Part shown: positions 7,978-47,426 of the stretch, piece by piece | Layout of the letters: the number at the start of each line of letters is the position of its first letter | How positions within the stretch are numbered: the stretch's first letter is position 1 | DNA from: a virus | IMG/VR virus record: IMGVR_UViG_3300044712_002679 | Span: 116,406 to 180,405 of that record | Reading direction: 5' to 3' (one strand) | DNA length: 64,000 nt | Position numbers and translations under genes: made by a program | The notes under the pieces: generated by a model | What the model was told of the DNA's origin: nothing | What the model saw: only the letters and a program-made list of their open reading frames with translations | Database searches by the model: none

Positions 7978-8053
7978 TGGACTGTATCGGATTTGCACCG
8001 ATTGTTAGCATAATTACTTTTTTGGTTTGCTATGCTTCAAAAAGCAACAGCCC
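7978..8053 (-). tRNA. tRNA-like gene with 17-nt anticodon loop and 4-nt D loop (probable pseudogene or non-canonical tRNA)
   Basis: Acceptor GGGCTGT/ACAGTCC, T arm ATCGG-TGCAAAT-CCGAT, stem TAGCA/TGCTA enclosing AACCAAAAAAGTAATTA; same 3' trailer as the two tRNA-Phe genes. Confidence 0.35.
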
Positions 8054-8055
8054 AT

Positions 8056-8676
8056 TTATTTTTTATATTTATTTTTATTTTTTCCACCATGTGTATCTAA
8101 TGTTGCATTACAATTTGGACATAATATTCTTAAATTTGTTAATCTATGATCATTATTTATCCCATTTATATGATCTAATATTAAACTTATATGTTTTCCT
8201 TTCCAATTTTCATCTTGTCCACACATTTCACACTTTCTTTTTTTTAATCCATCTTCATATAATCTTTCTTTCAAATGTGTTGTATTAAAATTGGAATTTT
8301 CAACTAATATTAATGATAAATCTATTTTTTTATTTAAATTTTTTATTTGAAATTCATATTTAATAAAATGATCAATATTTATATCATATTTTTTAATATA
8401 TTTTTTTAATGTGTTATAAGAAGAACCAAAATTATTAATATCTAATTTAATTAAACATTCTTTATATGTTTTTGAATTTTTAACAATTTCAATTAAATAA
8501 TCTTTTTCATATTTATTTTTTACACTATAATGTGCTTCTATTTTTAATTTTTTTCGTCTTTCCTCAATTGATCTTATTGATCTATCTAATTTAGTTAAAC
8601 AATATTTTAAACCATAAATAGGATAATTTTCAATCAATATATCATCTTCATTTTTTGTCCATTTTTTATTTTTCAT
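8056..8676 (-). CDS. HNH homing endonuclease (free-standing)
   Basis: CEMCGQDENWKGKHISLILDHINGINNDHRLTNLRILCPNCNA = HNH core with flanking CxxC pairs; embedded in tRNA array. Confidence 0.85.
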   Translation of the reverse strand: MKNKKWTKNEDDILIENYPIYGLKYCLTKLDRSIRSIEERRKKLKIEAHYSVKNKYEKDYLIEIVKNSKTYKECLIKLDINNFGSSYNTLKKYIKKYDINIDHFIKYEFQIKNLNKKIDLSLILVENSNFNTTHLKERLYEDGLKKRKCEMCGQDENWKGKHISLILDHINGINNDHRLTNLRILCPNCNATLDTHGGKNKNKYKK

Positions 8677-8767
8677 TTTAAGTTATTTTTTGTAGTATAT
8701 ATAAATATTTTAAACTACAAAAAATCACTATGAACTATAAAAATTCAAAAAAATAGTTATGGGAATG

Positions 8768-8848
8768 CACGACAGAGAGGATTCGAACCCCTGAACCTTT
8801 CGGTATAGTTTTGGAGACTATCAGCTTTAACCACTTGCATACTGCCGT
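8768..8848 (-). tRNA. Class II (long variable arm) tRNA, anticodon CCA (Trp codon UGG), discriminator G
   Basis: Acceptor ACGGCAG/CTGTCGT, class II-type D loop AAGTGGTTAAA, anticodon arm ATAGT-CTCCAAA-ACTAT, variable arm ACC-GAAA-GGT, T arm AGGGG-TTCGAAT-CCTCT; 81 nt. Confidence 0.65.
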
Positions 8849-8857
8849 ATATTTTTG

Positions 8858-8941
8858 CGGAGGCGAAGGGAATCGAACCCCCAAATCATTACTGATTTAC
8901 TTGTTTTCAAGACAAGCCCCTCGTCCATTCGGACCACCTCC
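8858..8941 (-). tRNA. tRNA-Ser (UGA), class II
   Basis: Acceptor GGAGGTG/CGCCTCC, anticodon arm CTTGT-CTTGAAA-ACAAG, variable arm AAATCA..TGATTT, T loop TTCGATT, discriminator G. Confidence 0.85.
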
Positions 8942-8991
8942 AAATACAATTTAAAAGATTGTTCGTTATTTTTTGCTGTATGTATTCTTTG
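8942..8991 (-). repeat. Spacer with conserved trailer and free anticodon-arm-like hairpin (loop CUUUUAA)
   Basis: CAAAGAATACATACAGCAAAAAA trailer after tRNA-Phe; ACAAT-CTTTTAA-ATTGT at 8946..8962, loop identical to the two UUU-anticodon tRNAs. Confidence 0.65.
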
Positions 8992-9067
8992 TGGGGTGAG
9001 GTGGATTCGAACCACCATCCCTGGATTTTCAGTCCAGTGCGAAACTGACCAACTGCGCTACCACCCC
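8992..9067 (-). tRNA. tRNA-Phe (GAA), canonical T-loop
   Basis: Acceptor GGGGTGG/TCACCCC, anticodon arm CTGGA-CTGAAAA-TCCAG, T arm GGTGG-TTCGAAT-CCACC, discriminator A. Confidence 0.9.
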
Positions 9068-9084
9068 AATAAGTATAACGTATG

Positions 9085-9157
9085 TGCGTCTGGTGGGTCA
9101 CGATCCCACGACTCCATCATTAAAAGTGATGTACTCTACCAACTGAGTTACAGACGC
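9085..9157 (-). tRNA. tRNA-Lys (UUU), swapped T-loop ATCGTGA
   Basis: Acceptor GCGTCTG/CAGACGC, D arm ACTC-AGTTGGTA-GAGT, anticodon arm CATCA-CTTTTAA-TGATG, T arm GTGGG-ATCGTGA-CCCAC, discriminator A. Confidence 0.8.
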
Positions 9158-9196
9158 AAAAATATTCAATATGTCAATGAACTTTAAAAAAAATTG

Positions 9197-9282
9197 TGAT
9201 CCCGATGGGACTCGAACCCATGTACAACTTTCGTATCCCACATTAAAAGTGTGGTGCCTCGTTCCAACTCGGCCACGGAATC
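9197..9282 (-). tRNA. Class II (long variable arm) tRNA, anticodon UUU (Lys), discriminator A
   Basis: Base-by-base reverse complement: GATTCCG TG GCC GAGTTGGAACGA GGC A CCACA CTTTTAA TGTGG GATACGAAAGTTGTAC ATGGG TTCGAGT CCCAT CGGGATC A; Ser-like D arm; 86 nt. Confidence 0.7.
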
Positions 9283-13331: not shown

Positions 13332-13877
13332 TTATTTTTTGTCACACATCAACCGTCTTTGTCTAATAAGATCAATTAATTCTATTGAAAAATCTTTATT
13401 AACTTCATTAGCTAACGGTAGAATATATTTTTCTGTTTGTTGTAAATATTCTAAAACTTTTTTATCTGTGTGTGTATCTAAATGTAAATCTGTCAAATTA
13501 CTAATTCTATCAGCGCATTTTAATATCTTTGCTCTTATTGAAATATATTGTAATCTTTGACAATATTCTTCTTTTGTTTCATCTTCACGTTTAGTAACTT
13601 CCAAAATTACATTAACGACTTCTGGTCCATCAATATCAAGTGATCTAATTTCATCTAAATTTGTTCCCAATTCTTCTATTAAATCGTGCAACAGACTAGA
13701 TTTCAATAATATGGGATCATAAAAATATTTGTAATCTAATAAAATACCCAATGTTGCAAAAGAATGTCTAAATTGATTTCCACCAACTTTTCTATGAACA
13801 CCAATTAAAGCAGTTGCTTTTAAAATGTATGGTGCAAGATTTAAATTTTGCAATGATATTAGGTTATTATTTGTCAT
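13332..13877 (-). CDS. HD-domain (p)ppGpp pyrophosphohydrolase (small alarmone hydrolase, SpoT/Mesh1-like)
   Basis: HRKVGGNQFRHSFATLGILL...LLKSSLLHDLIEELG...KILKCADRISNL parallels the SpoT hydrolase motifs H..Q.R..G.PY..HP..VA, LLHDvvEDT and KLADRlHNm. Confidence 0.7.
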   Translation of the reverse strand: MTNNNLISLQNLNLAPYILKATALIGVHRKVGGNQFRHSFATLGILLDYKYFYDPILLKSSLLHDLIEELGTNLDEIRSLDIDGPEVVNVILEVTKREDETKEEYCQRLQYISIRAKILKCADRISNLTDLHLDTHTDKKVLEYLQQTEKYILPLANEVNKDFSIELIDLIRQRRLMCDKK

Positions 13878-13952
13878 ATAAATATTGATTTATAGTAAAT
13901 AAAAATGTGGTTAATATATCATCAGGCATTTCTGTTTTAATTTTATACATAA

Positions 13953-14144
13953 TTATTTAAATCTTTTTTCAAAACTTTCTTTATTTAATGATACACCATT
14001 CTGAAATTTATAAAATCTTCCATCGAAAATAACATTAAATACATCACCAGATTTTGCATCTAATTTATTATCAATGCCATTTCGAACATTTTTTATTTGT
14101 ACATCTTCTGTACACGTTACAGTTTTTGTTATACTTTTTTTCAT
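13953..14144 (-). CDS. Hypothetical protein
   Basis: Start set at ATG 14144 (ATGA overlap with upstream stop); 63 aa. Confidence 0.45.
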   Translation of the reverse strand: MKKSITKTVTCTEDVQIKNVRNGIDNKLDAKSGDVFNVIFDGRFYKFQNGVSLNKESFEKRFK

Positions 14145-14608
14145 ATTGGTAATATGTGAAATTCTTTTAAAAATATATAATTTACAATATATTCCCAATT
14201 AGGGAATTCTTTAGAACCAAATTTTATAAATTCACCTTTAAAATCTAATTGTCCATGCATATCAGTATCATCAATTAGATAATCTCCAATATGTAAAGAT
14301 TTATCACATGACATATCAAGTCTTTCTAATGTTTCAAATCCTAAATGTTCAAGAACCCAATATGCTTTTTCTGTATAACTATTTAGATTATATATTGATG
14401 GTCGAGTTAAAATACGAACTTCAAAATATTCTTCAAGTTTTTTAAATGCTTTAATTGCACCTGGGATTTCTTCCAATTTAATAAAAAATCCAAACTGTGA
14501 TTGTGGATATTTTTGTGTTGGACATTTTTCCAAATCATTTAAATATGCCTTTGCAAAATTGCAAAGAACCCCATCTAAATCCACATATATTATTTTATTT
14601 TTTTTCAT
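14141..14608 (-). CDS. 5'(3')-deoxyribonucleotidase (NT5C family, HAD superfamily)
   Basis: KIIYVDLDGVLCNFAKAY (HAD DxDG motif near N-terminus) and IGDYLIDDTDMHG; longest ORF extends to 14632 but ATG 14608 avoids overlap with upstream gene. Confidence 0.7.
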   Translation of the reverse strand: MKKNKIIYVDLDGVLCNFAKAYLNDLEKCPTQKYPQSQFGFFIKLEEIPGAIKAFKKLEEYFEVRILTRPSIYNLNSYTEKAYWVLEHLGFETLERLDMSCDKSLHIGDYLIDDTDMHGQLDFKGEFIKFGSKEFPNWEYIVNYIFLKEFHILPI

Positions 14609-15389
14609 TTTTAAAATTTTTAAATTTTTCATATTTTCTATTCAAATATATATCAGACAAATTTTCTTCATAAATATAATTTAAAAAATTAAATGCATCT
14701 CTATACAAATATAATCTATTTGTTGAATAATGTTTTAAAATTTTTGTTTTTTTTGTTATTATTTTATTTTTTTCTAAAAAATCTTGAATTTGTTCTAAGC
14801 ATTCTTTAGTTGATATTAAATTTACTTTTATTCTATTATTATCTTTACCATATATTGTTAATGATCCATCACCATCAAACATACCAGCTATAAAATTCAA
14901 ATAATATTTTTCATCTATGTTTTTAATAATGAAATTATCACTTTTTTCAACATTTATATATTTTTGTAATTTTTTTGTGAATAAATTATTTGTAATAGAT
15001 ATTACATATGAAGTATATTCTTTATTGTTTCTTTTGTCAATAGTTGTATTTTTAACAATTTTATGTTCAGATTCTAATGACTTTTTAAATTTTATTAATA
15101 TTTCTTCATCTTTAGATACTAATCTAACTTTATTATTTTTTAAACAACCATCTGCAACAATAAAACCTAACCAATACGCTTTTTCTTTCGTGTCAATATT
15201 ATCAAAATATGATATATTGAATTTTAATTTGCTTTCATTTAACCTATTTCTATTTGTATTAATATTATTGTTTCTTAATATATTACTTACTGTTACTTGT
15301 GATATATTTAATTTTTTTGATATTTCAATTTGTTTATTTGTTAACGATAAATTAATTATTTCTGTTATTAAATCTTTATTTATTTTCAT
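14595..15389 (-). CDS. LAGLIDADG homing endonuclease (double-motif, free-standing)
   Basis: AYWLGFIVADGCL and NFIAGMFDGDGSL motifs about 100 aa apart; N-terminal HTH-like ISKKLNISQVTVSNILR. Confidence 0.85.
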   Translation of the reverse strand: MKINKDLITEIINLSLTNKQIEISKKLNISQVTVSNILRNNNINTNRNRLNESKLKFNISYFDNIDTKEKAYWLGFIVADGCLKNNKVRLVSKDEEILIKFKKSLESEHKIVKNTTIDKRNNKEYTSYVISITNNLFTKKLQKYINVEKSDNFIIKNIDEKYYLNFIAGMFDGDGSLTIYGKDNNRIKVNLISTKECLEQIQDFLEKNKIITKKTKILKHYSTNRLYLYRDAFNFLNYIYEENLSDIYLNRKYEKFKNFKNEKK

Positions 15390-15441: not shown

Positions 15442-15882
15442 TTATATATTAATATTAAAATCTCGTTTTATTCTAATTTTTTCTTCTCGATCAAAAATAG
15501 AATTTTTTTTATCATACAGTTTTTTTCCTTTGGCAATACAAATTGTTACTTTACAAAGACCTTGTTTATTAACAAACATATTCAAAGGAATTATTGTTAA
15601 TCCTTTTTCTTTTATTTTGACTTTAAGTTTTTTTAATTCTTTTTTTGTTAATAATAATTTTTTTGGTCGTTTTGGATCATGATTAAATTGATTTGCAAAT
15701 TCATATTCATCAATATGACAATTTACTAAATATAAATCGTTTCCTGTAAACGAACAAAAACTTTCAGATAATGATGCTTTACCCTTTCTTATTGATTTTA
15801 TTTCTGAACCCACAAGCTGAATCCCCGCTACGATTTCATCTTCTATAAAAAATTCGTAGTATGCTTTTTTATTTTTTATCAT
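15442..15882 (-). CDS. smpB: SsrA-binding protein SmpB
   Basis: NKKAYYEFFIEDEIVAGIQLVGSEIKSIRKGKASL...DPKRPKKLLLTKKEL...KVTICIAKGKKLYDKK aligns along the full length with E. coli SmpB. Confidence 0.9.
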   Translation of the reverse strand: MIKNKKAYYEFFIEDEIVAGIQLVGSEIKSIRKGKASLSESFCSFTGNDLYLVNCHIDEYEFANQFNHDPKRPKKLLLTKKELKKLKVKIKEKGLTIIPLNMFVNKQGLCKVTICIAKGKKLYDKKNSIFDREEKIRIKRDFNINI

Positions 15883-16201
15883 ATCTGATTTTATTTATTT
15901 TTTGTAATTTTAACTTTCTATCATTTCGTAATATTAATACATTAATTTCATTAGCACCACTAACATTATCATCAATTTTTTTAACATTATCTAACATTTC
16001 AGAATTTAATATTTCAATACTATTACCCTTTAAATCATTTACTACACTACCTATTTTTGGATATGTTGGATATGTTAACGGTAATTTTGTTTTTCGGCAA
16101 AGAAATTCAAATATTAAAGTAGATCCATAATTTAAAGGATTCCAATCTTTTTCATTTGAAATAATCCATGTATTATAAAAAATATATCCATAATATTTCA
16201 T
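15869..16201 (-). CDS. Hypothetical protein
   Basis: 110-aa ORF overlapping neighbours by a few nt (operon-like). Confidence 0.55.
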   Translation of the reverse strand: MKYYGYIFYNTWIISNEKDWNPLNYGSTLIFEFLCRKTKLPLTYPTYPKIGSVVNDLKGNSIEILNSEMLDNVKKIDDNVSGANEINVLILRNDRKLKLQKINKIRYDKK

Positions 16202-17154
16202 AATAAAATTCTTCCTTTATTTGGAAATTTGTAATTTTTAACTATTTCGTTATATACTTTATCGACTGTTGGATGACATTTATAAATATTTGGATCAGGA
16301 TCAATATCTTGACCCACTGTTTCTGGATTATCTAAACAAAAAGCTACAGGTGGCATAATATTATATTTACTGTTATATTTAATGCAATATTTCATATCTG
16401 ATGCACAAAATAATTTACAATCACCTAAAATATATGAATATTTATAATTTTGATATCCTTTTCTATATGGTGATCTCAATCTTGGATCAATTGAACTACC
16501 CAATTGAATAATATGTGTATCTGTTGTACCAGCCAAATGTAATATTCCGGAGTCCATTGTAATTACCATTGATGATTTATTTAAAATATGCCAAGTCTGA
16601 TGAATATTTATTTTATTAATTAGATTAAGTCCATTTTTAACATCTATATCATAAACAGGCTTCTGTATTTTATAATTTCCGTGTTCAACAGCATCTTTAC
16701 CAATTAATACTATCGGAATATTAATTTTGTTTATTTCATTTACTAGTTCTTGCCATCGTTCTTTTTCCCAACTTCTAGATGGCCAAGATTTAACAGGATG
16801 CATCACAATATAATTTTCTGGTAAATTAGATATCTCTTCATATTCATCAGGAAAAAATTCAATTTTCATTTCTTCGGGTAATAATTGAAATCCGGCACTA
16901 ATAGAATGAATTTGTCTAATATCTGTTCTAGTGTGAAGAAATTTATCGGGTCTAAAAGTTTCAATAAATAAATCACCATCATCTGGTGTTTGGTTATCAG
17001 TCAATATTATATATGGATAATTTTTAAGTAATTCTTTTTGATATGTGTAAACATAAATATTTTGATCATAGATTTCACTAAGATATTTTATTGTTGGAAT
17101 AGCACATAATGTATCACCGACACTTTGAGAACCAATTAAAACTAATATTTTCAT
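16198..17154 (-). CDS. Glycosyltransferase family 9 (heptosyltransferase-like)
   Basis: MKILVLIGSQSVGDTLCAIPTIKYL and VITMDSGILHLAGTTDTHIIQLG match GT9 motifs (ILVIr.s.lGD....P and DSG..HLAaa.g.P...lfG); start set at ATG 17154. Confidence 0.7.
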   Translation of the reverse strand: MKILVLIGSQSVGDTLCAIPTIKYLSEIYDQNIYVYTYQKELLKNYPYIILTDNQTPDDGDLFIETFRPDKFLHTRTDIRQIHSISAGFQLLPEEMKIEFFPDEYEEISNLPENYIVMHPVKSWPSRSWEKERWQELVNEINKINIPIVLIGKDAVEHGNYKIQKPVYDIDVKNGLNLINKINIHQTWHILNKSSMVITMDSGILHLAGTTDTHIIQLGSSIDPRLRSPYRKGYQNYKYSYILGDCKLFCASDMKYCIKYNSKYNIMPPVAFCLDNPETVGQDIDPDPNIYKCHPTVDKVYNEIVKNYKFPNKGRILL

Positions 17155-17197
17155 TCTAATTATATACATTTTATAGTTTAAGTTTTAATAAAAATTG

Positions 17198-19927: not shown

Positions 19928-20329
19928 TTATTTACAATAATAGCAAAAATTATAACCTGAATTAACCCGTCTAGTCAAACATTTTTGACACCATTCATTA
20001 TTTCCTTTGCGCAATTCTATTTCCGATTTAGTTAAAGCAACATTATAATTTTGTTTTCGATTGGTTATTTTATTTAATTTTGGATTATATTTTTTAATCA
20101 AGTCATATTCTAAATCAAGCATATCTGTTTGATTTTCACATATTTTTATTACTTCAAAAATCAAATCCTTTCCATTAGCTTTATGCCAACGAAATCTATC
20201 ATTTGGAACTTGGACTGTTGTACCAATATAGACAAGTTCTTTTGTTTTTTTATCAAGACCTTTATAAATATAAAAACCTTTTGAAAAAATAAGATTTTTA
20301 TTTTTTGCACACAATAAATCAGATTCCAT
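19928..20329 (-). CDS. GIY-YIG domain nuclease with C-terminal Zn finger
   Basis: GFYIYKG...LVYIGTT...NDRFRWHK...LEYDLIKKYNPKLN (GIY, YIG, R, H, E, N positions) and CQKC...CYYC. Confidence 0.7.
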   Translation of the reverse strand: MESDLLCAKNKNLIFSKGFYIYKGLDKKTKELVYIGTTVQVPNDRFRWHKANGKDLIFEVIKICENQTDMLDLEYDLIKKYNPKLNKITNRKQNYNVALTKSEIELRKGNNEWCQKCLTRRVNSGYNFCYYCK

Positions 20330-28620: not shown

Positions 28621-29154
28621 ATGAAGCAAAAAGAATCAGAAAACAGAATTAATTATTCAATTAAAGATTTAACCGTAAGGTTAGTTGGTGATAATGTTAC
28701 AAATGGTGTAATTGACACTAAAAGTGCAATAAAATTGGCTAGAGATATGGAATTAGATTTGGTCGAAATTTCGGGTCCAGTTAACGGAAATCCATCAATT
28801 TGCAAAATAGTTGACTATCAAAAATATCTTTACGACAAAAAGAAAAAAGATAAAGATCAAAAGAAAAAGCAAAAATTAAGTCAGTCAGAAGTCAAAGAAA
28901 TTAGAATGACCCCGCATACTGATGAACACGATTTTAATTTTAAATTAAATCATGCTAAAAACTTCTTAACCAATAACGATAAAGTATTAGTTTCAGTATT
29001 CTTTAAGGGTAGAGAAATATCATATAAAGAACAAGGTCAAATTGTTTTATTAAAATTTGCAAAGGAATTGGAAGATATTGGCATACCTGAGTATTTACCT
29101 AAACTAGAAGGAAAAAAAATGCTAATGATGATTAAACCTAAACCAAAAAAATAA
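28621..29154 (+). CDS. infC: Translation initiation factor IF-3
   Basis: RINYSIKDLTVRLVGDN...MELDLVEIS...PSICKIVDYQKYLYDKKKK...VKEIRMTPHTDEHDFNFKLNHAKNFL...VFFKGREISYKEQG aligns along the full length with E. coli IF3. Confidence 0.9.
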   Translation: MKQKESENRINYSIKDLTVRLVGDNVTNGVIDTKSAIKLARDMELDLVEISGPVNGNPSICKIVDYQKYLYDKKKKDKDQKKKQKLSQSEVKEIRMTPHTDEHDFNFKLNHAKNFLTNNDKVLVSVFFKGREISYKEQGQIVLLKFAKELEDIGIPEYLPKLEGKKMLMMIKPKPKK

Positions 29155-35217: not shown

Positions 35218-36454
35218 TTTTTAATCCAACTTGCCAATATGTTTTACCAGATAATATAATAGACACTTGATTACTTAATCCATTTATAGTGTGTTCTAAT
35301 ATATTATTTGTATTTGAAAAATTAATTATACCGCCATCCCAAGCTGAAATATTCATTAATGATGCAATTCTATCAATTCTACATGCATATCCATAATAAC
35401 AATCATTTCCGATATATGATCCGGCAAAAACTAATCCGATAATTTTTTTAACTCCCGAAAAATCAGCAATTAACGCAGAACCAGAATCACCACGATTTAT
35501 AGGATATGGACAATCTGGGTGCATTGGCTGTGTTGAACCTGTTGTAGCAACAAATTCAATTAGATCAGAATAGCTAACGTTTATATATTTTCCTTGTTTT
35601 TTATAATAAATATTTGAAATAACTGATGGAAATTGTGAAATTCGTAATTTTGTAATCCCTTCACCTTTCCCACCTGTTGTTCTTCCTGCACTATATAATA
35701 ATGGATTATATGATGATGATCCAGGAATTAAAATATTATTAATTTCTTCAGTTGTCGCAAATGGTAGTGGGTTTGTAAAACTCAATCCTTCATATTTATA
35801 TGATGTATTATTTGAAAATGTGTCTCCTGAATTAATTGTTGTTAATGCAACATCGACATAATTATAACCATATGAACTTATTGGATAATATTTTTTAACA
35901 ACACCAATTGGATGATTATCAGATATGCTTTCGTGTGGTTGTGTTACGATATTATTCTTAATGTTACTAATTATGCTAGTTGAACTTCTTTCCGAGCATA
36001 TAAAAGCATCATCAATAAAAACATGATTATTAGATACACCAACCAAAGAATTAGTATCATTATCTTTAGCAATAAATCCCAATGTGCCTGTTGAGTTTGG
36101 CATTGATGTAATATTACTTGCTGATATTCCACCTTTCAATGGTCTAAAAATATTTTTATTTGATATCGTTGTACCAGACCAAATGTAAAATTTAGGATCA
36201 CAACCCAATAATTTAAAATCTTTTTGTACAACATCAGTTTTAATAAATTGATCATTTATATTAATCTCATTTGGTAATAACTGATCTTCAGTCAATTGAT
36301 CTTTTGGTATTTTTTCTTTAACTGAAAAAACGATTGATTTTTCATCTGTTAATATTCCATTAACAGATTTATATCCATATCCAACACCAATTATATTGTC
36401 ATCTGTATTTTGATGGTATTCTTCAATAGTCTTTAATAATTCTTCATGGCCCAT
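35210..36454 (-). CDS. Trypsin-like (S1 family) serine peptidase
   Basis: Catalytic triad candidates in order: VSNNHVF (His), YVDVALT (Asp), NRGDSGSALIA (Ser, GDSG motif). Confidence 0.65.
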   Translation of the reverse strand: MGHEELLKTIEEYHQNTDDNIIGVGYGYKSVNGILTDEKSIVFSVKEKIPKDQLTEDQLLPNEININDQFIKTDVVQKDFKLLGCDPKFYIWSGTTISNKNIFRPLKGGISASNITSMPNSTGTLGFIAKDNDTNSLVGVSNNHVFIDDAFICSERSSTSIISNIKNNIVTQPHESISDNHPIGVVKKYYPISSYGYNYVDVALTTINSGDTFSNNTSYKYEGLSFTNPLPFATTEEINNILIPGSSSYNPLLYSAGRTTGGKGEGITKLRISQFPSVISNIYYKKQGKYINVSYSDLIEFVATTGSTQPMHPDCPYPINRGDSGSALIADFSGVKKIIGLVFAGSYIGNDCYYGYACRIDRIASLMNISAWDGGIINFSNTNNILEHTINGLSNQVSIILSGKTYWQVGLKTI

Positions 36455-40488: not shown

Positions 40489-41808
40489 ATGACAAAAACA
40501 GAAGAATTTATCCAAAAAGCGAAACTTGTTCACGGGGATAAATATAATTATTCTAAAGTCGAATATATTAATAATCACACTAAAGTTACTATTATTTGTC
40601 CAAAGCATGGTGAATTTAAACAACAACCAGCAAATCATTTAAATAATATGGGTTGTCCAAAATGTGTTGGCAATATAAAATTAACAACAACAGATTTTTT
40701 ATCAAAAGCAAAAGAAATTCATGGGGATAAATATGATTATTCAAAAGTTGAATATGTCGGAATATTTAATCACGTGAAAATAATTTGTCCAATTCATGGG
40801 GAATTTGAACAAACACCAAGACAACATCTTAAAGGTCGTGGGTGTTATAAATGTGGTGGTACACAAAAATATACACAAAATGAATATGTTATAAAAGCAA
40901 AGGAACTTCACGGGGATAAATATGATTATTCAAAAGTTAATTATTTGGGTGGTAGAAAAGATATAATTATAATTTGTCCTAAACACGGTGAATTTAAACA
41001 AAAAGCTGGTCAACATATACATGGTTCAGGTTGTCCAAATTGTGCTGGATTAGGGTTTATATTTCTATCATTTGAAGAAGCAAAAATTTTTGTTAAAAAT
41101 CTTAATTTACAAACACAAAATGAATGGCAAAAATATTGTAAATCGGGAAATAAACCTGATAATATACCAATAGCACCCGAAATTGTTTATAAAAAAGTTT
41201 GGATTAACTGGGGTGATTGGTTGGGTACATTTAAAATTTCAAATCAAAAAAAAGAATATTGGACATTTGAAGAAGCTAGAATATTTGTTAGAAATCTTAA
41301 TTTAAAATCAATAACAGAATGGAAAAGATATTGTAAAAATGAAAATAAACCTAGCAATATTCCAAATGATCCATACGGAACGTATAATAAATATGGTTGG
41401 TTAAATTGGGGTGATTTTTTAGGCTCATTTACATTAGCACCAAAAGATAGACAATATTTATCATTTGAAGAAGCAAGAAATTTTGTTAGAACACTTAATT
41501 TAAATTCAAAAGAAAAATGGGTAAATTATTGTAAATCGGGAAGTAAGCCTAACAATATTCCAAATGATCCATATAGTTATTATAAAGATGATGGTTGGAT
41601 TGATATGGGGGATTGGTTGGGTACATTTACAATTGCCCCACGATATAAACAATTAAATTATCTTTCAGAAGAAGAATTCATACAATTTATTAAAGATACA
41701 TTTCCAAATTTATATGGTGCTGAACTTCATAAAGCATATGAAGCTTGGTGGGATGAAAATAAACCAGAATATTTACCAAAGGATGTTGCTAAATATTATA
41801 ATAAATAA
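40489..41808 (+). CDS. WGDWLG-repeat family protein 1 (3 Zn-ribbon modules + 3 repeats + conserved tail)
   Basis: HGDKY.YSKV.Y...V.IICP.HGEF.Q....H..G.GCP.C x3; F.EAR.FVR.LNLKS..EW..YCKSG.KP.NIP..P...Y...GW..WGDWLG x3; tail NYLSEEEFIQFIKDTFP...AWWDENKPEYLPKDVAKYYNK. Confidence 0.85.
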   Translation: MTKTEEFIQKAKLVHGDKYNYSKVEYINNHTKVTIICPKHGEFKQQPANHLNNMGCPKCVGNIKLTTTDFLSKAKEIHGDKYDYSKVEYVGIFNHVKIICPIHGEFEQTPRQHLKGRGCYKCGGTQKYTQNEYVIKAKELHGDKYDYSKVNYLGGRKDIIIICPKHGEFKQKAGQHIHGSGCPNCAGLGFIFLSFEEAKIFVKNLNLQTQNEWQKYCKSGNKPDNIPIAPEIVYKKVWINWGDWLGTFKISNQKKEYWTFEEARIFVRNLNLKSITEWKRYCKNENKPSNIPNDPYGTYNKYGWLNWGDFLGSFTLAPKDRQYLSFEEARNFVRTLNLNSKEKWVNYCKSGSKPNNIPNDPYSYYKDDGWIDMGDWLGTFTIAPRYKQLNYLSEEEFIQFIKDTFPNLYGAELHKAYEAWWDENKPEYLPKDVAKYYNK

Positions 41809-41811
41809 TTT

Positions 41812-43515
41812 ATGTCAAAAAAACGACCTTTTTTATCATTTGAAAATGCTAGATTTTTTTCACGATCTATTAATTTAAAAAGTGGGAAAGAATGGAAAGA
41901 ATTTTGCAAATCAGGTAATAAGCCTGATAATATACCAACAAATCCATATGAAGTATACAAAAAAGAATGGATTAGTATGGGTGATTGGTTAGGGACATTT
42001 TCGGTTCATACTAAAAATTTTTTATCATTTAATGAAGCAAGAATTTTTGCTAGATCAAATAATTTCAAAAATAGAGAAGATTGGAAATTATATTGTAAAT
42101 CGGAAAATAAACCTAATAATATTCCGACAAATCCATATGAAGTATACAATAAAGAATGGATTAGTTGGGGGGATTGGCTAGGAACAAAAATAGGATTTGA
42201 AGGATTTTTATCATTTGAAGAAGCTAGAAATTATGTTAGAAATCTGAACTTAAAATCAAATAAAGAATGGTATAAATATTGTAAGTCAGGAGATAAGCCT
42301 GATAATATTCCATCTACACCAAATAAAAAATATAAAAATTGTGGTTGGACTAATTGGTATGATTGGTTTGGAACAAAAATTGAATTTGAAGGATTTTTAT
42401 CATTTGAAGAAGCTAGAAATTATGTTAGAAACCTGAATATAAAATCATCAAATGATTGGGCTAAATATTGTAAATCTGGAAATAAACCTAATAATATTCC
42501 AAGTAATCCACGTGAAGTATATAAAAATGAATGGAATGATTGGGGTGATTGGTTAGGAACATTTACTATATCAACACAAAACTATGTGTATTTATCATTT
42601 GATGATGCAAGAAATTTTGCTAGAAATCTTAATCTAAAAACACAAACATATTGGAGGAAGTATTGTAAATCGGGAAATAAACCTGATAATATACCAAGTG
42701 ATCCATCCAAAGGTTATAAAGATAAAGGTTGGCTTAGTTGGGGTGATTGGTTAGGTACAAAAATTGGATTTAATGGGTTTTTACCATTTGAAGATGCAAG
42801 AAATTTTGTTAGAAATCTTAATCTAAAAACCCAATATGAATGGAAAGTGTATCTTAATAGTGGAAACAAACCTAACAATATTCCAAATAAACCACGGGAT
42901 GTATATAAAGATTGGATTAGTATGGATGATTGGTTAGGTACTTTTGTGATATCAACCCATAAACAAAAATTTTTATCATTTGATGAAGCAAGAATATTTG
43001 TTAAAAATCTTAGATTAATCGGTAAAGATGATTGGTATAATTATTGTAAAAGCGGAAACAAACCAACGGATATTCCAACTACACCCAATACCGTTTATAG
43101 TGAATGGGTGGGTTGGGGTGATTGGTTAGGAACATATAATATAGCATCATTTGATAAAGAATTTTTATTGTTTAATGATGCGAGAAATATTATTAGAAAC
43201 AAAAATTTTAAAAATCAAAATGAATGGTTTGAATATTGCAAATCGGGAAATAAGCCAAAAAACATTCCAAGTGATCCATCAAAAACCTATATAAATGATT
43301 GGATTGATTGGGGTGATTGGTTGGGTACATTTACTATTGCAACCCAAAATAAACAATTAAATTATCTTTCAGAAGAAGATTTCATACAATTTATTAAAGA
43401 CACATTTCCAAATATTCCACCTGGAATTGAACTTCGCAAAGCATATGAAGCTTGGTGGGATGAAAATAAACCTGATTATTTACCAAAGGATGTTGCAGGA
43501 TACTACAATAAATAA
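41812..43515 (+). CDS. WGDWLG-repeat family protein 2 (8 repeats + tail)
   Basis: Eight consecutive ~57-aa repeats counted in the translation; tail nearly identical to protein 1. Confidence 0.85.
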   Translation: MSKKRPFLSFENARFFSRSINLKSGKEWKEFCKSGNKPDNIPTNPYEVYKKEWISMGDWLGTFSVHTKNFLSFNEARIFARSNNFKNREDWKLYCKSENKPNNIPTNPYEVYNKEWISWGDWLGTKIGFEGFLSFEEARNYVRNLNLKSNKEWYKYCKSGDKPDNIPSTPNKKYKNCGWTNWYDWFGTKIEFEGFLSFEEARNYVRNLNIKSSNDWAKYCKSGNKPNNIPSNPREVYKNEWNDWGDWLGTFTISTQNYVYLSFDDARNFARNLNLKTQTYWRKYCKSGNKPDNIPSDPSKGYKDKGWLSWGDWLGTKIGFNGFLPFEDARNFVRNLNLKTQYEWKVYLNSGNKPNNIPNKPRDVYKDWISMDDWLGTFVISTHKQKFLSFDEARIFVKNLRLIGKDDWYNYCKSGNKPTDIPTTPNTVYSEWVGWGDWLGTYNIASFDKEFLLFNDARNIIRNKNFKNQNEWFEYCKSGNKPKNIPSDPSKTYINDWIDWGDWLGTFTIATQNKQLNYLSEEDFIQFIKDTFPNIPPGIELRKAYEAWWDENKPDYLPKDVAGYYNK

Positions 43516-43518
43516 TTT

Positions 43519-44823
43519 ATGTCAAAAAAATTAACAACAGAAGAATTCATTATTAAAGCCAAAGGTGTTCATGGTGATAAATATGATTATTCTAAAGTTG
43601 ATTATGTTAATAATCATATTAAAGTTACTATTATTTGTCCAATACATGGTATTTTTGAACAAACACCAAGTAATCATTTACAAGGTAAGAATTGTATTAA
43701 TTGTGGTTCTTATAATCAATCTAATACCATAAAAAATAAAAATATATCATTTGAAGAATCAAGAAATTTTGTTAGAAATCTTAATTTGAAATCGCAAAAA
43801 GAATGGAATAAATATATTAAATCAGGTAATAAACCTGATAATATTCCAAGTATGCCAAATCGAATATATAAAAATAAAGGTTGGATTAGTATGGGTGATT
43901 GGTTAGGAACTTTTACAATAGCATCATATAAAAAAATTTTTTTACCATTTGAAGAAGCAAGAATTTTTGCTAGAAATCTTAATTTAAATTCACAAAAAGA
44001 ATGGTTAAAATATCGAAAATCTGATAATAAACCTGATAATATTCCAAGTAATCCATATAGTGTATATAAAAATGATGGTTGGTTATCATGGGGTGATTGG
44101 TTAGGAACAAAAAATGATTTTAATGGATTTTTACCATTTGATGATGCTAGAAATTTTGCTAGAAATCTTAATTTAAAACCATATGATAAATGGAAAAAAT
44201 ATTGTAAATCAGGAAATAAACCTAACAATATTCCAAGTAGTCCTGATAAAGTATATAAAAATAAAGGTTGGATTGATTTTGGTGATTGGTTAGGTTATAA
44301 AAAAGATTTTTTATCATTTGAAGAAGCCAGAACTTTTGTTAGAAATCTTAATTTAAAATCACAAAAAGAATGGATTGAATATTGTAAATTAGGAAATATG
44401 TTAGATAATATACCAAGTAATCCACAACATACTTATAAAAATAAAGGTTGGATTAGTTGGGGTGATTGGTTAGGCACATTTACTATTTATAAAAACAATT
44501 TTTTACCATTTGAAGAAGCAAGAATATTCGCAAGAAATCTTAATTTAAAATACAAAAAGAAATGGATTGATTATTGTAAATATGGTAATAAACCAAATAA
44601 TATTCCATCTGATCCATATCGTACATATAAAAATAATGGATGGGTTAGTTTTGGTAATTGGTTAGGTACTGAATATTTATCGGAAGAAGAATTCCAACAA
44701 TTTATTATTGATAATTTTTCAGATGTTCATCCTGATGATATGAATAAATTTTATGAAATATGGTGGAATGATAATCAACCAATTAATTTACCAAAATATC
44801 CAAAAGAATATTATAATAAATAA
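43519..44823 (+). CDS. WGDWLG-repeat family protein 3 (1 Zn-ribbon module + 5 repeats + tail)
   Basis: As above; gene junction ATAAATAATTTATGTCAAAAAAA identical to the junction between proteins 1 and 2. Confidence 0.85.
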   Translation: MSKKLTTEEFIIKAKGVHGDKYDYSKVDYVNNHIKVTIICPIHGIFEQTPSNHLQGKNCINCGSYNQSNTIKNKNISFEESRNFVRNLNLKSQKEWNKYIKSGNKPDNIPSMPNRIYKNKGWISMGDWLGTFTIASYKKIFLPFEEARIFARNLNLNSQKEWLKYRKSDNKPDNIPSNPYSVYKNDGWLSWGDWLGTKNDFNGFLPFDDARNFARNLNLKPYDKWKKYCKSGNKPNNIPSSPDKVYKNKGWIDFGDWLGYKKDFLSFEEARTFVRNLNLKSQKEWIEYCKLGNMLDNIPSNPQHTYKNKGWISWGDWLGTFTIYKNNFLPFEEARIFARNLNLKYKKKWIDYCKYGNKPNNIPSDPYRTYKNNGWVSFGNWLGTEYLSEEEFQQFIIDNFSDVHPDDMNKFYEIWWNDNQPINLPKYPKEYYNK

Positions 44824-44877
44824 AATAAAAATTTTTTAAAAAACTTACAATAAATTTGCTTTTTCGTAATAAAAACT

Positions 44878-44885
44878 TATATTTG
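44878..44885 (+). promoter_or_regulatory. -7 promoter box TATATTTG
   Basis: 28 nt upstream of ATG 44914; a second match TAAATTTG at 44851..44858. Confidence 0.55.
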
Positions 44886-44913
44886 CACAATGTTTAATTA
44901 AAAATATAAGTTT

Positions 44914-45546
44914 ATGAAAAAGTTTTTATCATTTGAAGAAGCAAAGGCATTTGCACAAAGTTTAAATTTAAAATCCTTAAAGGATTGGAAAGATTACTGT
45001 AAATCGGGTAACAAACCTAATAATATTCCAAATGATCCGTACAGTGCATATAAAAACAACAATTGGATTTCGTGGGGTGATTGGTTGGGTACATTTAGGG
45101 TTTCGAATAGGAACAAACAGTTCATATCTTTTGAAGAAGCAAAAGAAATTATCAAAAAATTAAATTTGAAAAACCGAAAAGATTATGAAAAATATCAATC
45201 AGATATGATTGAAAAACTTAATAATGCGACTGTACCAACAAATCCAAATGTTGTATATAGTAGTTCTTGGAAAAGTTGGAATGATTTTTTGGGTATAGAA
45301 CCAAATGAATTTCTTCCATTTGAAGAAGCAAGGAATTTTGTGCGATCACTTAATTTAAAAAGTGTTCGGGATTGGGAAAAATACAGAAAACAAAAACCTG
45401 ATAATATTCCATCTTTACCAAGTAGTTATTATAAAGAAAAATGGATAAATTGGGGGGATTGGTTAGGAACAAACAATGTTGCTACTAAATACGTATCATT
45501 CGAAGATGCAAAAAATATTGTTCGTAAATTAAAAGATTCAAAATGA
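44914..45546 (+). CDS. WGDWLG-repeat family protein 4 (3 repeats + truncated 4th, no tail)
   Basis: Ends inside a repeat (YVSFEDAKNIVRKLKDSK*), ATGA overlap with the next gene. Confidence 0.8.
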   Translation: MKKFLSFEEAKAFAQSLNLKSLKDWKDYCKSGNKPNNIPNDPYSAYKNNNWISWGDWLGTFRVSNRNKQFISFEEAKEIIKKLNLKNRKDYEKYQSDMIEKLNNATVPTNPNVVYSSSWKSWNDFLGIEPNEFLPFEEARNFVRSLNLKSVRDWEKYRKQKPDNIPSLPSSYYKEKWINWGDWLGTNNVATKYVSFEDAKNIVRKLKDSK

Positions 45547-46670
45547 AAAAGGAATTTTTACCATTTGAAGAAGCAAGAACATTCGTAAGATGCCTTAATT
45601 TAAAATCTTTTAAAGATTGGAAAAAATATTGTAAATCTGGAAATAAACCTATTAATATCCCATCTTGTCCTCATGTTATATATAAAAATGATTGGATTAG
45701 TTGGGGGGATTGGATAGGAACATTTTCAGTTCATACTAAAGAATTTTTACCTTTCGAAGAAGCAAGAAATTTTGTTTATACTAAAAATTTGAAAAATCAA
45801 GCTGAATGGTGGATATATTGTAAATCTGGAAATAAACCTGATAATGTGCCGTGTTCACCTGACATAATTTATAAAAATAATGGTTGGAATGGTTGGTATG
45901 ATTGGTTTGGATATGATAAAATATCGGTTTTAAAAAATAACTTCATAATAAAAGCTAACATTGTCCATAATAATAAATTTGATTATTCAAAAGTTAATTA
46001 TATTAATGTTAAAAATAAAGTTATAATTGGATGTCCCATACATGGTGATTTTGAACAAACTATAAATGGACATTTAAATGGTAGGGGGTGTTCAAAATGT
46101 GCTAAAATTGATTATAGATCATTTGAAAATGCTAGAAATTTTGTTCATTCTTTAAATTTACAAACGAATGCGGAATGGATAATTTTTAATAAAAGCGAAA
46201 ATATGCCTAAAGATATTCCACATAACCCAAATGTTGTATATAAAGATAATGGTTGGATTAGCATAGGTGATTGGTTAGGAACAAATTCAATTGCACCACA
46301 ATATATGAAATATAGAACATTTGAAGAAGCTAAAATTTTTGCACAAAAGCAAAATTTAAAATCTAAAGATGAATGGAAAGTATTTAAAAAATCCGAAAAT
46401 TTTCCTATTGATATACCTAAAAATCCAAACGTTACATATAAAGATAATGGATGGATTTCTTGGGGTGATTTTTTAGGTACATTTACATTAGCACCAAAAA
46501 ATATATCAAAAAATTATTTATCGGAAGAAGCAGCCAAACAATTTCTTATTGCTAATTTTTCAGATGTTCATCCCGATGATATGGATGATGCTTATGAAAA
46601 ATGGTGGAATAATAATCAACCAATTAATTTACCAAAACATATAAAATTACATTATAAATTGTTTTATTAA
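45543..46670 (+). CDS. WGDWLG-repeat family protein 5 (2 repeats + Zn-ribbon module + 2 repeats + tail)
   Basis: Module order read from the translation. Confidence 0.85.
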   Translation: MKKEFLPFEEARTFVRCLNLKSFKDWKKYCKSGNKPINIPSCPHVIYKNDWISWGDWIGTFSVHTKEFLPFEEARNFVYTKNLKNQAEWWIYCKSGNKPDNVPCSPDIIYKNNGWNGWYDWFGYDKISVLKNNFIIKANIVHNNKFDYSKVNYINVKNKVIIGCPIHGDFEQTINGHLNGRGCSKCAKIDYRSFENARNFVHSLNLQTNAEWIIFNKSENMPKDIPHNPNVVYKDNGWISIGDWLGTNSIAPQYMKYRTFEEAKIFAQKQNLKSKDEWKVFKKSENFPIDIPKNPNVTYKDNGWISWGDFLGTFTLAPKNISKNYLSEEAAKQFLIANFSDVHPDDMDDAYEKWWNNNQPINLPKHIKLHYKLFY

Positions 46671-46673
46671 AAA

Positions 46674-47426
46674 ATGAAAAAGGAATTCTTATTATTTGAA
46701 GAAGCTAGAAATTTTGTTAGAAATCTTAAATTAAAATCACAAAAAGAATGGAACAAATATATTAAATCAGGAAATAAACCTGATAATATTCCAAGTGATC
46801 CATATATTGCTTATAAAGATAATGGTTGGCTTAATTGGGGTGATTGGTTAGGTACATTTACTATAAAAAATAAAGATTTTTTACCATTTGAAGAATCAAG
46901 AAATTTTGTTAGAACACTTAAATTTAACAATAGAAAAAAATGGAAATTGTATTGTAAATCTGGTAAACCTGATAATATTCCAAGTAATCCAAACGTTGTA
47001 TATAAAGATAATGGTTGGTATAATTGGGGTGATTGGTTAGGAACATATACAATTGCAACATTTAATAAAGAATATTTATCATTTTATGATGCTAAAATAT
47101 ATGTTCATACATTAAATTTAAAAACCAAAATTGAATATGTTAAATATATTAAATCTGGTAATAAACCTGATAATATTCCAAGTGATCCATATAAGGTTTA
47201 TTACGATAAAGGTTGGATTAATTGGGGTGATTGGTTAGGTACATTTACTATTTCAAATCAAAATAAACAATTATATTATTTATCAGAAGAAGAATTTCAA
47301 CAATTTATTATTGCTAATTTTTCAGATATTCATCCAGATGATATGGATGAAGCTTATAGTAATTTTTGGAATAAAAATGAACCTATAAATTTACCAAAAT
47401 ATCCAAAAATATTTTATAATCAATAA
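46674..47426 (+). CDS. WGDWLG-repeat family protein 6 (3 repeats + tail)
   Basis: Module order read from the translation. Confidence 0.85.
   Translation: MKKEFLLFEEARNFVRNLKLKSQKEWNKYIKSGNKPDNIPSDPYIAYKDNGWLNWGDWLGTFTIKNKDFLPFEESRNFVRTLKFNNRKKWKLYCKSGKPDNIPSNPNVVYKDNGWYNWGDWLGTYTIATFNKEYLSFYDAKIYVHTLNLKTKIEYVKYIKSGNKPDNIPSDPYKVYYDKGWINWGDWLGTFTISNQNKQLYYLSEEEFQQFIIANFSDIHPDDMDEAYSNFWNKNEPINLPKYPKIFYNQ

What the first reader, a model, noticed from the sequence alone, without database searches (positions are those of the whole stretch)
15442..15882. Phage SmpB without a recognisable tmRNA in 64 kb, plus phage IF3
A full-length SmpB and a full-length IF3 (28621..29154) are encoded. SmpB is only known to work with tmRNA. 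None of the tRNA-like genes here has the tmRNA architecture: none has an alanine-type G3.U70 acceptor, a resume codon or a tag ORF ending in hydrophobic residues. Either the tmRNA lies elsewhere, or the phage SmpB hijacks or inhibits host tmRNA, or it partners with one of the odd tRNA-like RNAs. Together with the tRNAs, the alarmone hydrolase and the Rrp8-like methyltransferase, this is a broad translation-takeover toolkit.
Basis: partly seen in the sequence, partly recalled or inferred. Interest (0 to 1): 0.55.

Follow-up and report, generated by a model that had tools for sequence, protein, structure and literature searches.

The report
Megaphage SmpB gene, tmRNA partner unresolved
A very large, low-GC phage carries intact, conserved copies of the bacterial ribosome-rescue protein SmpB and initiation factor IF3, which is already known for huge phages; the missing tmRNA partner cannot be called absent, because the window is only part of the genome.

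Summary
Window 15442-15882(-) encodes a full-length SmpB (179.5 bits against a cutoff of 130). Window 28621-29154(+) encodes a full-length IF3. No tmRNA was found in the 64 kb window or in 10 kb to its left, using ARAGORN (default and relaxed), Rfam (gathering and E<=10), a phage-tmRNA HMM and my own G3:U70/T-arm finder.

The "orphan" reading is not established. The window is a replication/early region of a huge phage that probably infects Bacteroidota, and the genome may be about 0.5 Mb.

Two complete relatives disagree:
- The 735-kb phage LR756501 (SmpB 53.5% identical) has no detectable tmRNA anywhere.
- Lak-B5 (543 kb) has a convincing tmRNA about 250-300 kb from its smpB.

In Bacteroidota bacteria smpB and ssrA are also unlinked (2 of 80 loci).

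The phage SmpB is conserved in the same gene order across more than 20 related contigs. It is under purifying selection (dN/dS about 0.13). It keeps the invariant core residues and the C-terminal tail.

SmpB, tmRNA and IF3 in huge phages were reported in 2020. This is a new member of a known kind. My best reading is canonical ribosome rescue during infection, with the host tmRNA somewhat more likely as partner than an unseen phage tmRNA.

The parts
15442..15882 (-). smpB: full-length SsrA-binding protein, 146 aa, including the C-terminal tail (GKKLYDKKNSIFDREEKIRIKRDFNINI)
   Evidence: NCBIfam NF003843 at 179.5 bits against a cutoff of 130. Pfam PF01668. PDB alignments. Conserved residues. Tail alignment. 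dN/dS 0.135 against L138.
15869..16201 (-). 110-aa ORF of unknown function. It overlaps the smpB start by 14 nt, and its position upstream of smpB is conserved in relatives.
   Evidence: No Pfam family. Same position in L001, L003 and L004.
16198..17169 (-). Glycosyltransferase family 9-like gene. It is the first gene of the conserved GT9 - small ORF - smpB run, with a 4-nt overlap with the next ORF.
   Evidence: PF01075 at 51.2 bits. Gene order shared with L001, L003, L005 and L138-L141.
14595..15389 (-). Free-standing LAGLIDADG homing endonuclease immediately downstream of smpB
   Evidence: PF14528 at 51.5 bits. An ORF of similar size sits in the same place in L003, L005 and L138.
28621..29154 (+). 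infC-like gene: full-length translation initiation factor IF3, 177 aa
   Evidence: IF3_N 71 bits and IF3_C 110.1 bits. Best phage matches are LR756500/501/504 at 48-52%. Also present near smpB in relative L005.
5091..9282 (-). tRNA array (Lys, Trp, His, Ser, Phe; 14 ARAGORN calls plus a 135-nt Rfam hit at 5309-5443), interrupted by GIY-YIG and HNH endonuclease genes. It contains no tmRNA.
   Evidence: The same amino-acid set sits next to smpB in LR756501.

Best explanation
This is a working SmpB gene that has been inherited for a long time within a clade of low-GC huge phages, which probably infect Bacteroidota.

**Proposed mechanism.** During infection the phage makes its own SmpB, and its own IF3. 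SmpB binds the tRNA-like domain of an alanyl-tmRNA. Its C-terminal tail probes the empty mRNA channel of ribosomes stalled on broken or truncated mRNAs. Trans-translation then releases those ribosomes for phage protein synthesis.

**The RNA partner.** I lean towards the host's own tmRNA, because no tmRNA is detectable in this window, near smpB in the clade, or anywhere in the closest complete relative.

**Shown:** gene identity, integrity, conservation, purifying selection, and absence of a tmRNA in the 74 kb examined.

**Inferred:** that it acts in ribosome rescue, that it does so during infection, and that the partner is host tmRNA.
For: **Identity and integrity.**

**Residues.** All universally conserved SmpB positions are kept (E. 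coli numbering: N17, G33, G38, E40, K42, S43, R86, L90-92, E96, K124, G132, K133, K134, D137, K138). The basic C-terminal tail is present. The deviations (E31 to V, N93 to T) are shared with Bacteroidota bacterial SmpBs and with phage SmpBs that sit next to a tmRNA, so they reflect lineage rather than decay.

**Selection and conservation.** dN/dS is 0.135 at dS 0.59. The position after GT9 and a small ORF is conserved in contigs from many metagenomes.

**Likely host type.** The nearest cellular SmpBs are almost all Bacteroidota at 49-58% identity.

**A foreign SmpB can work with a different tmRNA.** H. pylori SmpB, only 34.6% identical, complements E. coli delta-smpB. Phage lambda-immP22 plating drops 10,000-fold without smpB or ssrA (PMC2862035).

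**No phage tmRNA found.**
- None in the window plus 10 kb.
- None within 10 kb of smpB in about 25 clade loci.
- None in the complete 735-kb LR756501 by four methods.
Against: - Only about 74 kb of a genome that may be about 500 kb was seen.
- Lak-B5 and a Lak-like IMG/VR contig carry both smpB and a distant tmRNA.
- Another huge-phage lineage has a tmRNA directly upstream of smpB.
- Mar_Mega_1 has one tmRNA (PMC9723777).
- Default ARAGORN missed two real phage tmRNAs (L059, Lak-B5), so very divergent ones could still escape.
- LR756501 shares only scattered homologs with the window, so it is an imperfect proxy.
- There are no expression or binding data.
Confidence: 0.5

Rival explanations
1. 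The phage encodes its own tmRNA elsewhere in its large genome. SmpB is then half of a complete phage-borne trans-translation pair, as in Lak megaphages.
For: - Lak-B5 has a tmRNA at 409,798-410,205 and smpB at 112,449-112,868.
- IMG/VR contig 3300013936_000289 holds both at a distance.
- 36 IMG/VR contigs carry a huge-phage tmRNA family, often next to smpB.
- Huge phages are reported to carry tmRNAs and SmpB (PMC7162821). Mar_Mega_1 has one tmRNA.
- The window may be about 13% of the genome.
Against: - The closest complete relative by SmpB and IF3 similarity (LR756501) has none by ARAGORN default and -ps95, Rfam, nhmmer and the TLD finder.
- About 25 clade loci and 74 kb of this phage are negative.
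- The tRNA array next to smpB, a likely site, has none.
Confidence: 0.38
2. The phage SmpB interferes with host trans-translation. It would sequester host tmRNA or occupy stalled ribosomes, either to block tagging of phage proteins or to blunt a host response.
For: There is no direct evidence. The idea is compatible with a SmpB lacking its own tmRNA. The window subgroup has a distinctive tail ending (REEKIRIKRDFNINI), shared with L003, L005, L013 and L061.
Against: - All core residues and the GKKxYDK hinge/tail motif are kept exactly as in tmRNA-partnered SmpBs.
- Phages studied so far need trans-translation rather than suffer from it (PMC2862035).
- The gene co-occurs with pro-translation genes (IF3, tRNAs).
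Confidence: 0.06
3. SmpB partners with one of the unusual tRNA-like RNAs of the neighbouring array instead of a tmRNA.
For: The array contains unusually long tRNAs with the class II shape and Lys/Trp anticodons, and a 135-nt tRNA-like gene.
Against: - All have ordinary anticodon arms, none has G3:U70, and there is no resume codon or tag frame.
- The same tRNA types occur in relatives as part of normal arrays sorted by amino acid.
- SmpB is known to replace the missing anticodon arm of the tmRNA tRNA-like domain (established knowledge). A complete tRNA leaves no place for it.
Confidence: 0.03
4. The gene is a recent, functionless passenger picked up from a host, or the window is a mis-assigned bacterial or CPR genome piece in which smpB is simply the cell's own gene.
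For: One 86%-cluster member is annotated as Candidatus Dojkabacteria SmpB. The nearest cellular homologs are Bacteroidota.
Against: - Identity within the clade (62-91%) exceeds the best bacterial identity (58% or less).
- Conserved position and dN/dS 0.13.
- Phage hallmarks in the window: an A1-like DNA transfer protein (phrog_1745, E=8.6e-134), homing endonucleases, redundant tRNA arrays, 18 genes shared with phage LR756501, and relatives listed in IMG/VR.
- No rRNA and no other non-tRNA RNA family reached Rfam's gathering score in the window. None of the larger ORFs scanned against Pfam or PHROGs matched a ribosomal-protein family.
Confidence: 0.03

Closest known systems
SmpB genes of huge phages (Al-Shayeb et al. 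2020, PMC7162821), e.g. the 735-kb phage LR756501
   Same: - Full-length SmpB in a phage of very large genome with many tRNAs and IF3.
- LR756501 SmpB is 53.5% identical and its IF3 49% identical.
- The same Lys/Trp/Ser/Phe/His tRNA array lies a few kb from smpB.
- 18 shared genes.
- No tmRNA detected.
   Different: - Lower GC here (about 25% against 32%).
- No long-range shared gene order.
- The window's clade has its own conserved GT9 - ORF - smpB - LAGLIDADG arrangement and a distinctive tail ending.
- The complete genome is not available.
Lak megaphages of Prevotella (e.g. Lak-B5, MK250024.1)
   Same: Bacteroidota-infecting megaphage of about 26% GC that encodes SmpB (44-46% identical), with tRNA arrays near smpB.
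   Different: Lak-B5 has its own tmRNA (409,798-410,205, tag ending RMAA) about 250-300 kb from smpB. No such RNA was seen for this phage in the sequence available.
Huge-phage tmRNA-smpB cassettes (IMG/VR 3300002835_000001, 3300046787_000508, 3300021138_000127 and others)
   Same: Phage-borne SmpB with the same lineage-typical residues (T at E. coli position 31, T/S at 93).
   Different: A 400-nt tmRNA with a 20-aa tag (about GNVYNNMEIAGxLATSxVxA) lies 70-650 nt upstream of smpB. Nothing similar is found here.
Bacterial SmpB of Bacteroidota (Bacteroidales, Maribacter, Flavobacteriaceae etc.)
   Same: Same family, length, tail and lineage-specific residues, at 49-58% identity. In those genomes smpB is also unlinked to ssrA.
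   Different: Encoded by a phage and forming its own clade, with higher identity within the clade (62-91%) than to any bacterium.
Phage-encoded IF3 (LR756500/501/504, Agrobacterium phage Atu_ph07)
   Same: Two-domain IF3 of normal length in a huge or jumbo phage.
   Different: Only 41-52% identical. No functional data exist for any of them.

Membership tests
SmpB (SsrA-binding protein; PF01668 / TIGR00086 / NF003843) | Profile score above the curated equivalog cutoff over the full length | tested here: met
   179.5 bits against 130 (NF003843) and 174.2 against 119.1 (TIGR00086), residues 2-142 of 146. Pfam 178.3 bits against 27.
SmpB (SsrA-binding protein; PF01668 / TIGR00086 / NF003843) | Conserved core residues and the basic C-terminal tail after the GKK hinge | tested here: met
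   N17, G33, G38, E40, K42, S43, R86, L90-92, E96, K124, G132, K133, K134, D137 and K138 (E. coli numbering) are kept. A tail of about 25 residues is present. The functional roles of these residues are recalled from the literature, not tested.
SmpB (SsrA-binding protein; PF01668 / TIGR00086 / NF003843) | Binds the tRNA-like domain of tmRNA and supports trans-translation | not testable with these tools
   Needs binding or complementation assays.
Complete phage-borne trans-translation pair (tmRNA + SmpB) | A tmRNA gene (G3:U70 acceptor, T-arm, resume codon, tag frame) in the same genome | tested here: inconclusive
   None in the window plus 10 kb by five methods. The rest of the genome is not available.
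Translation initiation factor IF3 | N-terminal and C-terminal IF3 domains in one protein of about 180 aa | tested here: met
   PF05198 at 71 bits (residues 10-80) and PF00707 at 110.1 bits (residues 90-174) in a 177-aa ORF.
Huge phage (over 200 kb) related to the LR756501 / Lak group | Phage hallmark genes and homology to members of the group | tested here: met
   A1-like DNA transfer protein (phrog_1745, E=8.6e-134) and family B DNA polymerase. 18 genes with 35-81% identical homologs in LR756501. SmpB relatives on IMG/VR contigs up to 465 kb. No capsid or terminase gene lies in this window.
Huge phage (over 200 kb) related to the LR756501 / Lak group | Genome longer than 200 kb | tested here: inconclusive
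   The cluster table lists a longest contig of 501,337 bp for the exact SmpB. Retrievable contigs are 1.4-26 kb. A relative with the same gene order lies on a 235-kb contig.

The most novel reading that the evidence does not exclude
A whole lineage of Bacteroidota megaphages, including this one and the 735-kb LR756501, keeps a conserved SmpB under purifying selection but has no tmRNA of its own. The viral protein would then load the host's tmRNA onto stalled ribosomes. That would be a virus supplying only the protein half of a two-part ribosome-rescue machine to keep ribosomes free while host mRNAs are destroyed or cleaved by defence nucleases.
Probability: 0.45. Interest if true: 0.5.

Novelty: new member of a known kind. 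Interest (0 to 1): 0.3.

Why it matters
Huge phages carry pieces of the translation machinery, and it is unclear which pieces act alone on host components. If this SmpB truly lacks a phage tmRNA, it gives a clean test case: one viral protein that must recognise a host RNA and the host ribosome. That would suggest ribosome stalling limits megaphage infection.

The work also gives two practical results. Default ARAGORN misses real megaphage tmRNAs (Lak-B5, L059). The largest published phage genome (LR756501) has SmpB but no detectable tmRNA.

As it stands, the finding mainly adds a well-conserved new clade to an already reported phenomenon.

Tried and rejected
**Retrieving the source genome.**
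- An exact 38-mer from smpB is absent from IMG/VR.
- A 20-kb piece has no megablast match in INPHARED.
- Exact-protein look-ups gave only Logan and JGI contigs of 1.4-26 kb. One of them extended the window 10 kb to the left, and that stretch has no tmRNA.

**Searches that found nothing useful.**
- A single-sequence search of IMG/VR found no relatives. An alignment query was needed.
- I tried to intersect tmRNA-bearing IMG/VR contigs with smpB-bearing clade contigs. The two family-specific patterns found 36 and 11 contigs, none from the close clade.
- blastn of a huge-phage tmRNA against INPHARED gave no match.
- Mar_Mega_1 (OU342829.1) is not in the collection.

**Ideas I dropped.**
- An early idea that this is a T5-like phage of about 120 kb, based on the A1-like protein, a deoxynucleotidase and a tRNA cluster. 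The cluster table and the relatives' contig sizes pointed to a huge phage instead.
- The relaxed ARAGORN hits in the window (8666-9084, 35880-36275). They overlap tRNA genes or a protease-like ORF and have implausible tags.
- A strict-finder hit in L005/L006/L007 (13733-14086). It reuses the T-arm of a well-scored tRNA-Ser, so I treated it as chance.

**Not run.** I did not predict a structure, because sequence evidence for the fold is already unambiguous.

Full report
**What is there**

The ORF at 15442-15882 on the minus strand encodes 146 residues. It is a full-length SmpB.
- NCBIfam equivalog NF003843 scores 179.5 bits against a cutoff of 130, and TIGR00086 scores 174.2 against 119.1, both covering residues 2-142.
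- Pfam PF01668 gives 178.3 bits.
- The protein aligns end to end with solved SmpB structures (7ljp_A, E=1.1e-40; Thermus, Aquifex and E. coli chains).

The ORF at 28621-29154 (+) is a two-domain IF3 (IF3_N 71 bits, IF3_C 110.1 bits). Both parts of the observation are correct.

**No tmRNA in the window**

- ARAGORN finds 14 tRNAs, all between 5091 and 9282 on the minus strand, and no tmRNA.
- Rfam finds only tRNAs at gathering threshold. It finds no tmRNA family even at E<=10.
- Relaxed ARAGORN (-ps95, -ps90) yields one candidate. It overlaps three tRNA genes and its tag ends in CRAFP, so I treat it as spurious.
- I wrote a finder for the tRNA-like domain. It requires a T-loop (TTCRANN), a 5-bp T-stem, a 7-bp acceptor 150-800 nt apart, and G3:U70. 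It recovered 13 of 15 control tmRNAs with essentially no false hits. It also recovered the Lak-B5 tmRNA. It finds nothing in the window.
- None of the 14 tRNA acceptor stems has G3:U70, from my reading of the sequences.
- A Logan contig from the same run extends the window 10 kb to the left. It is also negative.

**What the window is**

- GC content is 21-31%.
- The window has no close match in INPHARED or IMG/VR.
- It carries an A1-like DNA transfer protein (phrog_1745, E=8.6e-134). Its best matches are in Maribacter, Cellulophaga and Flavobacterium phages.
- It also carries a family B DNA polymerase, a PolB-type exonuclease, a helicase, a PIN-domain protein, a pyrimidine-dimer glycosylase and a glucosaminidase.
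- There are many GIY-YIG, HNH and LAGLIDADG homing endonucleases, and most remaining ORFs have no family.
- Eighteen genes have homologs of 35-81% identity scattered over the 735-kb phage LR756501.
- The cluster table for the exact SmpB sequence lists a longest contig of 501,337 bp. The look-up tool returned only short contigs.

I conclude that this is a replication/early region of a huge phage whose host is probably in Bacteroidota. Host and genome size are inferences.

**The gene is conserved and constrained**

- SmpBs 62-91% identical occur on many metagenome and IMG/VR contigs of 24-30% GC.
- The order GT9 glycosyltransferase - small ORF - smpB - LAGLIDADG-type ORF - 5'-nucleotidase recurs in L001, L003 (a 235-kb NCBI contig), L005/L007 (154 kb) and L138-L141.
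- IF3 and a Lys/Trp/His/Ser/Phe tRNA array lie nearby in those relatives too.
- dN/dS between the window gene and its 86%-identical relative is 0.135 at dS 0.59.
- The positions invariant across SmpBs are kept, and the tail after the GKK hinge is present.
- Positions 31 and 93 (E. coli numbering) differ from E. coli. The same residues occur in Bacteroidota bacterial SmpBs and in phage SmpBs that sit beside a tmRNA.
- The best matches among 185,579 species genomes are almost all Bacteroidota at 49-58% identity. That is lower than identity within the clade, so the gene is an old resident of this phage lineage.

**Is it an orphan?**

Linkage tells us nothing here.
- Only 2 of 80 bacterial smpB loci, mostly Bacteroidota, have a tmRNA within 10 kb.
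- About 25 clade loci have none either.

Phage tmRNAs do exist and are detectable.
- One huge-phage lineage has a 400-nt tmRNA with a 20-residue tag directly upstream of smpB (L039, L059, L075-L078).
- 36 IMG/VR contigs carry that tmRNA family.
- Rfam scores it at 75.5 bits.

I then fetched two complete relatives.
- **LR756501** (735,411 bp; smpB at 199.5 kb) has 59 tRNAs in arrays sorted by amino acid. It has no tmRNA by ARAGORN default or -ps95, by my finder, by nhmmer, or by Rfam over the whole genome.
- **Lak-B5** (543,529 bp; smpB at 112.4 kb) has a convincing tmRNA at 409,798-410,205. Its acceptor is GGGGATG/CATCTCC with G3:U70, its T-arm is GTGGT/ACCAC, and its tag ends in RMAA. Default ARAGORN misses it.
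- A Lak-like IMG/VR contig likewise holds both genes far apart.

So one relative is an apparent orphan and one is not. A 64-kb window cannot decide.

**Mechanism**

Established knowledge: SmpB binds the tRNA-like domain of alanyl-tmRNA. With its C-terminal tail in the empty mRNA channel, it lets tmRNA enter stalled ribosomes.

Two published results are relevant (PMC2862035).
- H. pylori SmpB, only 34.6% identical to the E. coli protein, complements E. coli delta-smpB.

A phage SmpB that is 49-58% identical to Bacteroidota SmpBs could therefore plausibly use host tmRNA.

My best reading is canonical ribosome rescue during infection, and I put the partner probabilities as follows:
- host tmRNA: about 0.5
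- an unseen phage tmRNA: about 0.38
- interference with host rescue, partnership with the odd tRNAs, or a functionless passenger: together about 0.1

**Comparison with what is known**

Al-Shayeb et al. 2020 state that huge phages encode IF1, IF3, release factors, tmRNAs and SmpB. Their supplementary GenBank files contain at least eight annotated SsrA-binding proteins. Mar_Mega_1 has one tmRNA.

This is therefore a new, well-conserved clade within a known phenomenon. The only element that could be new is a lineage-wide absence of a phage tmRNA, which remains to be shown.

- The Rrp8-type methyltransferase domain (PF05148, 99.7 bits) is the C-terminus of an 879-aa ResIII/Helicase_C protein.
- The "alarmone hydrolase" is a sub-threshold HD_4 match.
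- The restricted tRNA repertoire is explained by arrays sorted by amino acid, as in LR756501.

Noticed in passing
window 9196-9282, 5091-5178, 8767-8848 (all minus strand): tRNAs of 82-88 nt with a long variable arm (the class II shape) carry Lys (UUU, CUU) or Trp (CCA) anticodons. The same odd types recur in relatives L003/L005 and in LR756501 at 203-207 kb. It is unclear which synthetase charges them. Relatives encode synthetase-like genes next to the array.
   Followed up: partly
window 5309-5443 (-): A 135-nt Rfam tRNA hit (45.5 bits) that default ARAGORN misses. It is a normal acceptor/D/T body with an insertion of about 60 nt in the anticodon arm. Similar over-long tRNA hits occur in LR756501 (L127 9096-9213 and 6050-6160).
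   Followed up: partly
window 6186-7097, 8056-8676, 14595-15389, 19928-20329, 40489-47426: Dense load of homing-endonuclease genes. GIY-YIG and HNH genes sit inside the tRNA array, a LAGLIDADG gene lies right after smpB, and there is a run of HNH/INT_rpt paralogs at 40.5-47.4 kb.
   Followed up: no
window 47458-50097 (+): 879-aa fusion of a ResIII/Helicase_C helicase with a C-terminal Methyltransf_8 (Rrp8-type) domain. A DNA or RNA remodelling role seems more likely than ribosomal RNA methylation.
   Followed up: no
MK250024.1 (Lak-B5) 409,798-410,205 = L150 about 13,798-14,205: Convincing megaphage tmRNA (G3:U70, tag ...EFRMAA) that default ARAGORN misses and -ps95 finds. It lies about 250-300 kb from the Lak smpB.
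   Followed up: yes
L039 8953-9356; L059 9546-9954; L075 2340-2761; L076 9521-9928: A conserved huge-phage tmRNA family with an unusually long tag (about GNVYNNMEIAGxLATSxVxA) immediately upstream of smpB. 36 IMG/VR contigs of up to 334 kb carry it, and no INPHARED record does.
   Followed up: partly
LR756501.1, whole genome (L123-L137): The largest published phage genome has SmpB and IF3 but no tmRNA detectable by four methods. Its 59 tRNAs are grouped into arrays by amino acid. A group I intron (96 bits) lies at L137 25159-25390.
   Followed up: yes
L354 5390-5830 (about 4-4.6 kb left of the window start): A 430-nt intergenic gap holds four copies of a TAGGAACNAYYTATGC-like motif. It could be a promoter or operator array. 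Nearby are genes for Tpt1 (RNA 2'-phosphotransferase) and two radical SAM enzymes.
   Followed up: no
protein P0122 (MCK9416742.1): A member of the 86%-identity SmpB cluster is annotated in NCBI as Candidatus Dojkabacteria SmpB. Given the phage gene order of its cluster mates, this is probably a phage contig binned into a CPR genome.
   Followed up: no
window 2315-3121 (-) and 58155-59207 (+): Two R2K-clade ATP-grasp paralogs lie about 55 kb apart. Both match the same LR756501 region at 354.8-355.6 kb.
   Followed up: no
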